From Holophagaceae bacterium (GTDB taxonomy: Bacteria; Acidobacteriota; Holophagae; Holophagales; Holophagaceae), in contig DATEZP010000060.1 in the NCBI GenBank assembly GCA_035255465.1, forward strand, positions 5,159 through 69,158: a stretch of DNA of 64,000 bases. The letters run 5' to 3'. Position 1 is the first letter of the stretch. Each line of letters begins with the position of its first letter. Shown piece after piece: positions 58,794 to 64,000 of this stretch. The notes under the pieces are model-generated. The model was not told the DNA's origin, ran no database searches, and worked only from the letters and a program-made list of their open reading frames with translations. The translations under genes and the position numbers were made by a program.

Positions 58794-58868
58794 TGGGGAG
58801 TCGCCAAGTGGTAAGGCAGCAGGTTTTGATCCTGCCTATCGAGGGTTCGAATCCTTCCTCCCCAACCA
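58794..58868 (+). tRNA. tRNA-Gln (anticodon TTG), CCA encoded
   Basis: Acceptor TGGGGAG/CTCCCCA; anticodon arm GCAGG-ttTTGat-CCTGC; T-loop TTCGAAT; 3' ACCA. Confidence 0.8.
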
Positions 58869-58934
58869 CAAGCTCCCGGTGACCCCGGGGGCTTTGCCGT
58901 GGCGGATGAAGGCTGATCCAGGGCGGGTTTGAGT

Positions 58935-59180
58935 TTGGGAATTCAAAAATCATTCGCTAATAACGTTCCATGGTCCAAATGGGCTCCTTGGAATTGACCT
59001 GCTTATAGGTTAAAAATTGAATTCGAAAGGGGGCATGTCCGAAATTTAAATCATAGGATAAAGGTATTTACAAAGAAATCTGTTCAAAATCAGATTTGAT
59101 TTGACTAGGTAATATATACTTTATCCGTGATTTGAATCACGCAGAAAATGCATGGATGAATTGAATTAAGACCTAAAGTT
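58935..59180. promoter_or_regulatory. AT-rich (about 35% GC) regulatory gap with repeated GAATTGA/GAATTCA motifs and a CRP/FNR-type palindrome CGTGATTTGAATCACG (59126..59141) about 93 bp upstream of the NHL-cytochrome operon
   Basis: The palindrome matches both TGTGA-N6-TCACA and TTGAT-N4-ATCAA cores. TTGACT and TATACT hexamers nearby. Confidence 0.5.
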
Positions 59181-59233
59181 TGACCTCAACAGCCCCTTAC
59201 TCAAGGAACCGGCTGAACCTGGGGAACCCGGTG

Positions 59234-60301
59234 ATGAGGACCCTTCAAACCCGCCTGATGACAGCGCTCCTGGTGCTGGGCGGACTGTGCGCTCCGCTGG
59301 CCGCGCAGAAGGCCTCGGGGAAGTTGGACGTGAGCAGCCTGGTCTGGCCGCCCCCACCCGCCCCCACGCGGATGAAGTGGGTTTCCGAGTACCGGAACGA
59401 ATTCGACCTCGGGGCCAAGAAACGCACCAGCTTCCTCGACCGCCTCGCGGGCAAGGCCCAGGATTCCCTCTGGCTCAAGCAGCCCGTGTCCATCGCGGTG
59501 GATGACAACGGCACCGTGTTCGTCGGGGACACCCAGCTGGGTGTGGTGGGCATGGACGCCGCCAAGAAGCGCATGTGGCTCTTCTCGAAGCTCTCCCCCG
59601 AAGCCCCCACCGCCGCCACGGGCCTCGCGGTGGACTCCAAATTCGTCTACGCCACCGACAGCGCCCAAAGCCAGCTCTCCGTGTTCGACAAGGAAGGTCG
59701 CCGCCTGAAGACCCTGGGCCCGGCCGAAGGGATCCAGCGCCCCGTGGGCGTGGCCGTGGATGAAGCCAAGGATCTGGTGGTGGTGGTCAACGGCGGCGAC
59801 CACACGATCCTGCTGTTCAATCGCGCCCTCAAGCCGATCAAGAAGATCGGTTCGCGCGGTGACAAGCCCGGCCAGCTGAACTACCCCACCTACTGCTGCA
59901 TCGTTCCCGGCACCGGGTTCGCCGTGGCCGACACCGCCAACTTCCGGGTTCAGTACTTCACCTACGAAGGCAAGTTCCTCAGCACCTTCGGCAAACAGGG
60001 CGACTATTCGGGCAGCTTCTCCATGCCCAAGGGCATGGCCGTGGATCCCGAAGGCAACCTCTACGTGGTCGACGCGAAGTTCTGCAACTTCCAGGTGTTC
60101 CGCAAGGACGGCCAGGTGCTGCTCTTCGTCGGCACCGGCGGTACGGCGCCCGGTACCTTCCAGATCCCCTGCGGCATCGCCTTCACGAAGGATGGCTTCG
60201 TCTACGTGGCCGACACCGTGAACGCCCGCATCCAGCGGTTCCAGTACGTGGCCGCTCCCCCCACCGAATCTCCAGTTCCCCCCCAGAAGGGTCGCGACTA
60301 G
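59234..60301 (+). CDS. Secreted NHL-repeat beta-propeller protein
   Basis: Signal peptide MRTLQTRLMTALLVLGGLCAPLAAQ. Repeated NHL units (QPVSIAVDDNGTVFVGD, PVGVAVDEAKDLVVVVN, MPKGMAVDPEGNLYVVD, IPCGIAFTKDGFVYVAD). GGGGAA RBS. Confidence 0.75.
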   Translation: MRTLQTRLMTALLVLGGLCAPLAAQKASGKLDVSSLVWPPPPAPTRMKWVSEYRNEFDLGAKKRTSFLDRLAGKAQDSLWLKQPVSIAVDDNGTVFVGDTQLGVVGMDAAKKRMWLFSKLSPEAPTAATGLAVDSKFVYATDSAQSQLSVFDKEGRRLKTLGPAEGIQRPVGVAVDEAKDLVVVVNGGDHTILLFNRALKPIKKIGSRGDKPGQLNYPTYCCIVPGTGFAVADTANFRVQYFTYEGKFLSTFGKQGDYSGSFSMPKGMAVDPEGNLYVVDAKFCNFQVFRKDGQVLLFVGTGGTAPGTFQIPCGIAFTKDGFVYVADTVNARIQRFQYVAAPPTESPVPPQKGRD

Positions 60302-60347
60302 CGCCCCTTCAGATCTCCCCCCCAACCCTCCTATTTGGAGACGCACC

Positions 60348-61052
60348 ATGAAACGCCTTCTTCTCTTCCTTGTCGCCGCCGGCCTCGGGCTTTCCGCCCA
60401 GACCAGTGTCGTGAACACCAAGCACAACCTCAGCGCCGGCGGAACCGCCTACAGCGCGGGCGCCGCCACGACCTACACCCAGGTCTGCAAGTTCTGCCAC
60501 TCCCCTCACGGCGCCAACGTGGCCGACAAGCAGCTCGTGCCCCTGTGGGGCCATGCGAACACCACGCAGCTCTTCACCATGTACGCCAGCAACCCCAACC
60601 AGACGCTGAAGACCACGGCCATCGATTCCCAGCCCAGCGGCCCCAGCCTCGCCTGCCTCTCCTGCCATGACGGCACCGTGGCCGTGAACGCCCGCTATAC
60701 CTATGGCGACGCCACCGCGCCCCGTTGGACCTACGGCAACATGAATGACACCAACGCCTCCGTCATCGCCGACTTCGATGTCACCACCGATGCCAAGGGC
60801 AACAAGATGGGCACGCTGAAGCACAGCATCGCCGGCGAAACCAAGAACGACCTCTCGACCGTGCACCCCATCGCCATCAAGTACGACACCACCGCCAACA
60901 CCCAGCTGGTGGCGAACCCCGTCGGCGTGAAGCTCTTCAACGGCAAGGTGCAGTGCGCCTCCTGCCACGACGCCCACGGCACGGCCAACAGCATGTTCCT
61001 CCGCGTGTCCTCCACGAACTCGGCGCTTTGCCTCGCCTGCCACGTGAAGTAA
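60348..61052 (+). CDS. Tetraheme c-type cytochrome (two paired CXXCH motifs), secreted
   Basis: Signal peptide MKRLLLFLVAAGLGLSAQ. Heme sites CKFCH, CLSCH, CASCH, CLACH. Confidence 0.8.
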   Translation: MKRLLLFLVAAGLGLSAQTSVVNTKHNLSAGGTAYSAGAATTYTQVCKFCHSPHGANVADKQLVPLWGHANTTQLFTMYASNPNQTLKTTAIDSQPSGPSLACLSCHDGTVAVNARYTYGDATAPRWTYGNMNDTNASVIADFDVTTDAKGNKMGTLKHSIAGETKNDLSTVHPIAIKYDTTANTQLVANPVGVKLFNGKVQCASCHDAHGTANSMFLRVSSTNSALCLACHVK

Positions 61053-61132
61053 CCGCCTGAACCAACGTAGCGAAGCGGGGGAGGGCAGTTCCTTCCCCCG
61101 CTTCTTTGCGGATCCCCACTGAGTTCGAGTCC

Positions 61133-62911
61133 ATGAAACTACGGGTTCCCATGATCCTGCTGGCCGTCCCCCTCGCGGTGGGCGCGCAGGAGGTGGCCAC
61201 CCTGGACCACAGCCTTTCCCTGTCCTACTTCGGGAACCAGGCCTCCCTGGGTGGGCTGAATTCCCGCAGCACCTACACCAAGACCGACTACCAGTTCGAC
61301 CTCGGCATGCCCATCCTGGCCTATCGCCTCGGGGCGCTGAACCTGGGGGGCTCCGTCGGCTACGTGCGCCAGAGCTTCGATGGCGAGGCGGATTCGGCCA
61401 CCGGGCTGAACTCCGTTTCGGTGGCCGGCGCGCTCTTCCCCTACCAGCCGTACCACATCACCTTCGACGTGACGCGATCCACGGCGCCGAGCCTGTTTGG
61501 CAGTGGCTCCAACACCAGCCAGACCCTGGGCCTGGATTTCCTCTATCGGGGCCGTGCGATCCAGGACATCCGGATCTCCTACCGCCACGGGGACCTGTCG
61601 GGCGATGGTCTGAGCGGATCCTTCGATTCCTGGGTGGTGACCGAGAACGAGCGGCGGGGCCGCACCGACCTCCGCATCTACGGGGATCACCAGGAAGCTT
61701 CCTTCGGCGAAGGCTCCAGCTGGAAGAGCTCCACCTTCACCGCCTCCACCCGGACGGCCCTGACCGGGGATTGGACTTGGAACAACAGCCTTTCGGCCTT
61801 CGATTTCCAAGGCACCCGACTCGCCCAGGTGGGGACGAGCCTGCTGGGCTCCCAGGGGCCCTGGACTTCCACCACGATTTTCGATGCCGCCTTCACCGAA
61901 TCCGCCACGAGCCGGGAGCGCTCCGGTGGCCTGAGCCAATCCCTCGCCCGCACCTGGGGCCGGGTCTCCGCCTTCGGCATCGCGGGCGTGACCGGGGGCT
62001 CCTCGTCGGGCACGGGCGGAACGGCTTCCACGGAGAACCTGATCCTCGGCGCCAGCTACCGCCTCACGCCGGAATGGACGTTGATGGGGGATGTGAGCGG
62101 CGCATGGAGCCGCACCCCCTCCGCCGGGACTGGCTCCGGGGCGGGCGCGGGCCCCACGCGATCCACCCATGTGGGCCTCACCTGGGGTGGCTCCATGACG
62201 GACACCATCCGGCACGCCTTCTTTTTCTGGAGTGATCTGCGGTTCCAGCGGCGCATCGAGGAGGATTACCCCCCCGACTACCTGCCGCCGGAGCTGGCGA
62301 AGGCCCAGATGCGGCGGCGCATGGATCAGCAGGGTTCCCTCCAATTCTCGGCGGACGCCTATCGCCTTGAGAACGGCGGGCCGGGCCATCAGCAGTGGTT
62401 CCGCATGCAAGGGGGCCTCAACTTCAACAACGGCCTGATGCTCCAGACCATCGGCGATCTGCGCACGGACGACCGCTTTTCCAATCGGGAACGGGTGTTC
62501 CGGAACGAGCACTTGATGCTGTTCGGCGCCTACCGGATCGGGCAGGCCTCCCTCCGCTTCAACTACGGGTACTCCAAGGCCACGGTGCGGGATGCGGATG
62601 GGATCGCTGTGACTCCGGCGAATCCATCCCCCGTGTCCACGGGCAGCGACCGCTCCGCCACCTACTATGGCCTTGGCGTGAACGCCATGGCCTTCACCAT
62701 TCCCTACGGCGTCATGGTGCTCCGGAACAACGATGCCATGGGGGTGGGCACCACCTCGGTGCTGACCTACCTCTCCGCGGGGTTCCGCAAGGTCCGCTTC
62801 AACCTCAACTACCAGCGGGGCTGGCGCACGGATGGCCTGCGCACCAGCCAGATCTCCCTCCAGCTCGCGCGGTGGTTTGATACCATCCCGGTCTGGGGGC
62901 TGGGCGATTGA
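61133..62911 (+). CDS. Outer-membrane beta-barrel (porin-like) protein, candidate conduit of a porin-cytochrome complex
   Basis: Signal peptide MKLRVPMILLAVPLAVGAQE. Roughly 590 aa rich in G/S/T/Y/N/R/W with no long hydrophobic stretches. Confidence 0.65.
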   Translation: MKLRVPMILLAVPLAVGAQEVATLDHSLSLSYFGNQASLGGLNSRSTYTKTDYQFDLGMPILAYRLGALNLGGSVGYVRQSFDGEADSATGLNSVSVAGALFPYQPYHITFDVTRSTAPSLFGSGSNTSQTLGLDFLYRGRAIQDIRISYRHGDLSGDGLSGSFDSWVVTENERRGRTDLRIYGDHQEASFGEGSSWKSSTFTASTRTALTGDWTWNNSLSAFDFQGTRLAQVGTSLLGSQGPWTSTTIFDAAFTESATSRERSGGLSQSLARTWGRVSAFGIAGVTGGSSSGTGGTASTENLILGASYRLTPEWTLMGDVSGAWSRTPSAGTGSGAGAGPTRSTHVGLTWGGSMTDTIRHAFFFWSDLRFQRRIEEDYPPDYLPPELAKAQMRRRMDQQGSLQFSADAYRLENGGPGHQQWFRMQGGLNFNNGLMLQTIGDLRTDDRFSNRERVFRNEHLMLFGAYRIGQASLRFNYGYSKATVRDADGIAVTPANPSPVSTGSDRSATYYGLGVNAMAFTIPYGVMVLRNNDAMGVGTTSVLTYLSAGFRKVRFNLNYQRGWRTDGLRTSQISLQLARWFDTIPVWGLGD

Positions 62912-64000
62912 TGGGCCGCGAAACCGAATGGAACGGGAAGGCCTCCGCCATCCGGGCCTTGGGAACGCGAAGCTGGATCGGCGTGGTGTTGGCCCTGTTC
63001 ATCGGGTCCCTCGGAGCCGTGGATGGGCCCAAGGCCACCCCCCAGAAAACCAAGGCCGCCGTGGCCCACGGGGATTGCCGCCTCTGCCACCGCACCCACG
63101 CTTCAGCCATGAGCGCCGATGGCAAGACCCCGGCCGGCAAGAAGCAGGGCCCAGGCGCCTTCGCGCCCAGCGTGCTGGATCAGGTGTGCCTGGAATGCCA
63201 CCAGGGCCCCCCGGTGCCTGCCAAGGATTTCGAAGCGAGCAAGTTGGAGCCCTGGTCGGGTTCGGGTTCCAGCCATGTGGATGGCCCCTTCCTGGAGCGG
63301 GCCCGCACCTTCACCCGGATCGTGGACCGGGGCAATGGGCGCAAGCTCGTGCTCAAGGCCCAATGTGACGGGTGCCATGACGTGCATTCCAAGAACCGCA
63401 CCTCCAGCCTGCTACCCCTGGCCTTTGACGCGCAGGGCAAGGTCCAGCGCATCCGCCCCGCTAATGCCAGCCAGGTCTGCTTCGCCTGCCACGCGGGGCA
63501 GGAGGCCGTGAAGTTCTTCCGGGGCGACGGGGATCTCGGGGCCTTGATGGGCCCCACGGCGCAATCGGCCCACCGGCCCGGGGCCACGGCCTCGGCCCGG
63601 GCGGACTTGCCCAGCCTGCGCACGGGGTTCTTCACGGGCACGCTGGATTGCACCTCCTGCCACGACAATCCCAATCCCGCCGGGCCCAAAGGGCCGCACA
63701 CCTCTCCATTCCCCCACCTGCTCAAGGCCAGCTACGGAAGGGAAGGGGAGATCGCCACCGCGGGGCCCCGCGCGAACGAACTCTGCTTCAACTGCCACGA
63801 CCGCATCTCCATCGAAGGCAATCAGTCCTTCCCCTTCCACGCCCAGCACGTCAGCGGGTTCACGGGCCTGGGCGCCACCCGGGCCGGCAACCGGGCGCTG
63901 CCGGGTAAGCGGGCTGGGGCGGCGCCCCTGCCGTCCTGGAAACCCTTCACCTTCTCCGGCGCCGGCTCCTCCGGAGGCTTCGGCCAGCCCGCCAACTGCG
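62911..64000 (+). CDS. Multiheme c-type cytochrome (at least 6 CXXCH in the visible part), 3' truncated by the window edge
   Basis: ATG overlaps the porin stop (ATGA). N-terminal hydrophobic segment WIGVVLALFIGSLGAV. Heme sites CRLCH, CLECH, CDGCH, CFACH, CTSCH, CFNCH. Not in the ORF track (no stop). Confidence 0.75.
   Translation, partial: MGRETEWNGKASAIRALGTRSWIGVVLALFIGSLGAVDGPKATPQKTKAAVAHGDCRLCHRTHASAMSADGKTPAGKKQGPGAFAPSVLDQVCLECHQGPPVPAKDFEASKLEPWSGSGSSHVDGPFLERARTFTRIVDRGNGRKLVLKAQCDGCHDVHSKNRTSSLLPLAFDAQGKVQRIRPANASQVCFACHAGQEAVKFFRGDGDLGALMGPTAQSAHRPGATASARADLPSLRTGFFTGTLDCTSCHDNPNPAGPKGPHTSPFPHLLKASYGREGEIATAGPRANELCFNCHDRISIEGNQSFPFHAQHVSGFTGLGATRAGNRALPGKRAGAAPLPSWKPFTFSGAGSSGGFGQPANC

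What the first reader, a model, noticed from the sequence alone, without database searches (positions are those of the whole stretch)
59234..64000. Candidate porin-cytochrome extracellular-electron-transfer cluster: NHL propeller, 4-heme cytochrome, 590-aa OM beta-barrel and a cytochrome with at least 6 hemes
Four co-directional, tightly spaced or overlapping genes. All have signal peptides. The beta-barrel stop overlaps the ATG of the downstream multiheme cytochrome (ATGA). That coupling is typical of porin-cytochrome (Pcc / Mtr / Ext-type) conduits, where a periplasmic cytochrome, an OM barrel and an outer cytochrome are co-translated. The tetraheme protein uses doubled CXXCH pairs. The last gene shows 6 CXXCH before the window ends. 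The NHL-repeat propeller as first gene is not a standard component of the described Mtr or Pcc modules, so the architecture may be a distinct or undescribed variant. The cluster sits directly after a tRNA-Gln and an AT-rich gap, which is suggestive of horizontal acquisition.
Basis: partly seen in the sequence, partly recalled or inferred. Interest (0 to 1): 0.75.

Follow-up and report, generated by a model that had tools for sequence, protein, structure and literature searches.

The report
OmcE-type cytochrome nanowire cluster, Acidobacteriota variant
The four genes are real and almost certainly serve electron transfer to the outside of the cell, but their closest known relative is the Geobacter OmcE "cytochrome nanowire" gene set (propeller, four-heme filament subunit, large outer-membrane barrel), here in a distinct version from an acidobacterial lineage.

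Summary
The window has four co-directional genes with signal peptides: an NHL propeller (59234-60301), a 4-heme cytochrome (60348-61052), a 592-aa barrel (61133-62911) and a multiheme cytochrome that runs off the window (62911->).

The interpretation needs re-aiming. The tetraheme is a full-length homologue of the OmcE filament subunits solved by cryo-EM (7TFS, 9YUQ; E ~1e-20). All eight heme-ligand histidines are invariant, and 7TFS is the only significant fold match. The NHL propeller is homologous to the propeller just upstream of omcE in G. sulfurreducens (30% identity, E 1e-48), and the gene order propeller-OmcE-barrel is the same. So the NHL gene marks the OmcE module.

The barrel models as about 28 strands. 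Its family is tiny (40 representatives among 1.84 billion) and has no detectable sequence relation to the Geobacter barrel or to any Pfam/NCBIfam family.

Relatives show the full locus. After the barrel come an 8-heme cytochrome whose start overlaps the barrel stop, a lipoprotein prolyl isomerase, a second OmcE paralogue and a 42-heme cytochrome.

The tRNA-Gln and flanking genes are conserved in related species, and codon composition is native, so recent horizontal transfer is not supported.

Verdict: a new variant of a known kind, of moderate interest.

The parts
58794..58868 (+). tRNA-Gln (UUG). This is the conserved upstream neighbour, not part of the machinery.
   Evidence: ARAGORN and Rfam at 62.5 bits. 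The same tRNA lies upstream of the cluster in L001, L003 and L006.
58869..59233 (+). AT-rich (GC 0.43) intergenic promoter and regulatory region. It contains the palindrome CGTGATTTGAATCACG at 59126-59141, a GTGA-N6-TCAC site of CRP/FNR type.
   Evidence: The palindrome is unique in the window (1 match, 0.02 expected). A GTGA-N6-TCAC site lies 104-155 nt upstream of the propeller gene in every Holophagae-type cluster, including L008 and L010, which have different flanks.
59234..60301 (+). NHL-repeat beta-propeller, 355 aa. It has a type I signal peptide and no lipobox. It is homologous to the propeller gene upstream of omcE in G. sulfurreducens.
   Evidence: Pfam NHL E 1.5e-25. It shares 30% identity over 328 aa (E 1e-48) with the L012 propeller, including the N-terminal WPPxPxxxRxxW segment. 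It is the slowest-evolving member of the cluster.
60348..61052 (+). OmcE-family tetraheme cytochrome, 234 aa. Proposed subunit of an extracellular cytochrome filament.
   Evidence: phmmer against the PDB gives 7TFS at E 2.4e-20 over the full length and 9YUQ at E 5.4e-20. The 4 CXXCH motifs and 4 further His are invariant in alignments of 12 and 124 sequences. For the AlphaFold2 model (pLDDT 85.6), the only significant PDB fold match is 7TFS (E 1e-8, TM 0.58/0.66).
61066..61110 (+). GC-rich terminator-like hairpin directly after the OmcE-like gene. Proposed attenuator.
   Evidence: Free energy is -34.7 kcal/mol with z -4.0; it also appears in the terminator scan. A hairpin lies at the same position, with different stem sequences, in L001, L003, L006, L008 (with a U-tract) and L010. 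A canonical terminator follows G. sulfurreducens omcE in L012.
61133..62911 (+). Outer-membrane beta-barrel of about 28 strands, 592 aa. A conserved helical insert lies between strands 18 and 19 (residues about 355-400).
62911..64000 (+). Multiheme cytochrome, cut by the window end. 363 of about 420 aa and 6 of 8 heme motifs are visible. Its ATG overlaps the barrel stop.
   Evidence: The junction reads TGATG. There are 6 CXXCH motifs in the window; the 94%-identical L001 orthologue has 7 CXXCH plus a C-terminal CX3CH. Pfam MtrC-MtrF_II-IV domain E 1.3e-11. No Cys precedes the first heme motif, so it is not a lipoprotein.

Best explanation
This is the 5' two-thirds of an OmcE-type extracellular cytochrome filament ("nanowire") locus. 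The host is an uncultured acidobacterium, probably Holophagaceae and related to Geothrix.

Proposed mechanism:
1. The operon is driven from the AT-rich region downstream of tRNA-Gln, under a CRP/FNR-type regulator that binds the conserved GTGA-N6-TCAC site (inferred).
2. The 234-aa tetraheme is exported by Sec, loaded with four bis-His hemes, and polymerises outside the cell as OmcE does. The hairpin after its gene keeps subunit mRNA in excess over mRNA for the accessory genes (inferred by analogy with pilus operons).
3. The barrel of about 28 strands is the outer-membrane passage or anchor for the filament.
4. The 8-heme, non-lipoprotein cytochrome is translationally coupled to the barrel. 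It is made 1:1 with the barrel and most likely sits in or under it, carrying periplasmic electrons to the filament base (inferred).
5. The periplasmic NHL propeller acts in folding and assembly, as does the lipoprotein parvulin-type prolyl isomerase encoded just past the window end in relatives (inferred).

Shown here:
- family membership of the tetraheme and homology of the propeller;
- shared gene order with Geobacter;
- the barrel fold;
- conserved coupling, hairpin and operator.

Inferred, not shown: filament formation in this organism, the role of the barrel, and the direction of electron flow.
For: - OmcE homology by sequence, by heme ligands and by fold.
- The G. sulfurreducens omcE locus L012 has the order propeller - OmcE - large barrel with no Pfam hit, preceded by two multiheme cytochromes.
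- The window propeller is 30% identical to the Geobacter one at E 1e-48.
- The 8-heme cytochrome aligns weakly but nearly end to end with the Geobacter 370-aa cytochrome (E 2e-5). Both carry a C-terminal CX3CH motif.
- The same propeller - OmcE - barrel pattern recurs in a gammaproteobacterial symbiont (L013) and in another metagenomic lineage (L014).
- Petersen et al. 2025 use exactly this association (OmcE plus a large barrel plus a propeller) to define nanowire-competent OmcE homologues.
- The module propeller - OmcE - barrel - cytochrome - PPIase is conserved in all relatives, in two different genomic contexts.
- The barrel/cytochrome overlap is conserved, and the two proteins diverge in parallel: 64/61%, 33/36% and 32/45% identity.
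- The barrel is very large and has no plug domain.
- The hairpin and the operator are conserved.
- A prolyl-isomerase chaperone, a channel and a propeller are the proposed biogenesis parts of the OmcS nanowire (Shen et al. 2025, as summarised in PMC13194489).
Against: - No experiment exists for any Holophagae-type homologue, and polymerisation cannot be read from sequence.
- The barrel shows no detectable sequence homology to the Geobacter omcE-linked barrel (hhalign probability 0.7%; HMM search). The shared role therefore rests on position and size only.
- The cluster departs from the published minimal OmcE cluster. It has one propeller, not two, and that propeller is not a lipoprotein. Its cytochrome lies downstream of the barrel rather than upstream.
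- The physiological need for cytochrome filaments is itself disputed in Geobacter (PMC11077965; PMC12580347; listed).
- OmcE homologues also occur in sulfur-oxidising symbionts, so the direction and purpose of electron flow are open.
Confidence: 0.65

Rival explanations
1. A classic porin-cytochrome conduit. The barrel houses the 8-heme cytochrome in the manner of MtrAB, PioAB or OmaB-OmbB. The tetraheme is only a soluble periplasmic or surface electron carrier and forms no filament.
For: - The start-stop overlap of barrel and cytochrome is conserved in all relatives.
- The cytochrome is not a lipoprotein, like MtrA and OmaB.
- The cytochrome has an MtrC/MtrF domain II/IV Pfam hit.
- Barrel and cytochrome diverge in parallel.
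Against: - The barrel matches no Pfam or NCBIfam family at E<=1.
- The cytochrome scores 24-25 bits against cut-offs of 192-209 for the DmsE/MtrA and OmcA/MtrC families.
- The tetraheme is homologous over its full length to two proteins whose solved state is an extracellular filament.
- The conserved propeller and the gene order match the omcE locus.
- The two readings are not exclusive. The conduit idea survives as a sub-part of the best explanation.
Confidence: 0.2
2. An electron-uptake or redox-sensing and detoxifying surface system rather than a respiratory outlet. Examples would be oxidation of Fe(II) or of reduced humics, or exchange of electrons between cells.
For: - OmcE-family homologues with propeller and barrel neighbours occur in chemosynthetic sulfur-oxidising symbionts (Ca. 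Thiodiazotropha and related gammaproteobacteria).
- Multiheme chains are reversible (established knowledge).
- Petersen et al. propose cell-to-cell electron exchange for OmcE bundles.
Against: - The host lineage is named Holophagaceae or Geothrix in the records. From my own knowledge, not tested here, Geothrix is a cultured Fe(III) and humics reducer.
- A 42-heme cytochrome and further cytochromes lie nearby in relatives, as is typical of reducers.
- Nothing in the window indicates an oxidative metabolism.
Confidence: 0.1
3. A chance adjacency: an ordinary porin and unrelated cytochromes, recently acquired by horizontal transfer next to a tRNA.
For: The cluster sits after a tRNA and an AT-rich gap.
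Against: - The same gene set occurs in at least five divergent relatives and in two genomic contexts.
- The flanks and the tRNA are collinear at about 78% DNA identity.
- GC3 is native.
- The AT-rich gap carries a conserved operator.
- The barrel family is never seen without the cytochromes where contigs are long enough.
Confidence: 0.02

Closest known systems
OmcE cytochrome-nanowire gene cluster of Geobacter sulfurreducens and Desulfuromonas soudanensis. By gene order it spans GSU0615 to about GSU0619. Structures are 7TFS and 9YUQ. Sources: Wang et al. 2022; Petersen et al. 2025, bioRxiv 10.1101/2025.10.22.684050.
   Same: - The tetraheme subunit is homologous over its full length, with all 4 CXXCH motifs and 4 distal His conserved.
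- A homologous NHL/DUF5128 propeller lies immediately upstream.
- A large barrel with no Pfam hit lies immediately downstream.
- A terminator-like hairpin follows the subunit gene.
- A multiheme cytochrome with a C-terminal CX3CH motif is present.
   Different: - The barrel is 592 aa, against 752 aa, with no detectable sequence similarity.
- There is one propeller with a type I signal peptide, instead of two propeller lipoproteins.
- The cytochrome lies after the barrel and is translationally coupled to it, instead of two cytochromes upstream.
- There is no linked glycosylation gene block. The upstream GT4 gene is BshA.
- Relatives carry extra conserved genes: a lipoprotein PPIase, a second OmcE paralogue, a small lipoprotein and a 42-heme cytochrome.
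- The host phylum, Acidobacteriota, is not among the five phyla listed by Petersen et al..
The osc (OmcS-companion) cluster of G. sulfurreducens (Shen et al. 2025, as cited in PMC13194489).
   Same: The logic is the same: filament cytochrome paralogues are encoded with a prolyl-isomerase chaperone (OscH), channel-like proteins (OscEFG) and a beta-propeller-like protein (OscD). The Holophagae locus likewise combines a PPIase, a barrel and a propeller with two subunit paralogues.
   Different: The filament subunit here is OmcE-type with 4 hemes, not OmcS-type with 6. Homology of the accessory proteins to the Osc proteins could not be tested, because the Osc sequences were not retrievable with these tools. 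The PPIase gene lies outside the window.
Porin-cytochrome conduits: MtrCAB, MtoAB/PioAB, OmaB-OmbB-OmcB (Pcc) and ExtABCD.
   Same: - A large plug-less barrel is encoded next to, and translationally coupled with, a non-lipoprotein multiheme cytochrome.
- MtrB is the solved structure with the highest TM-score to the barrel model.
   Different: - The barrel matches no family.
- The cytochrome scores far below the family cut-offs.
- The model has about 28 strands; MtrB has 26 (from my own knowledge, not measured here).
- There is no outer lipoprotein cytochrome.
- An OmcE subunit and a propeller are present.
Putative novel EET clusters of Acidobacteriota: EET1, a 'porin-scaffold-cytochrome' system in Terriglobales/UBA7540 (Fiorito et al. 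2026, bioRxiv 10.64898/2026.05.27.727921), and the unnamed novel PCCs in Geothrix MAGs (He et al., bioRxiv 10.1101/392027).
   Same: Both are acidobacterial, syntenic clusters of a porin with multiheme cytochromes, some described as OmcE-like.
   Different: They come from different orders, and their 'OmcE-like' cytochromes are reported with 8-13 hemes. Identity with the present cluster could not be checked, because no sequences are held.

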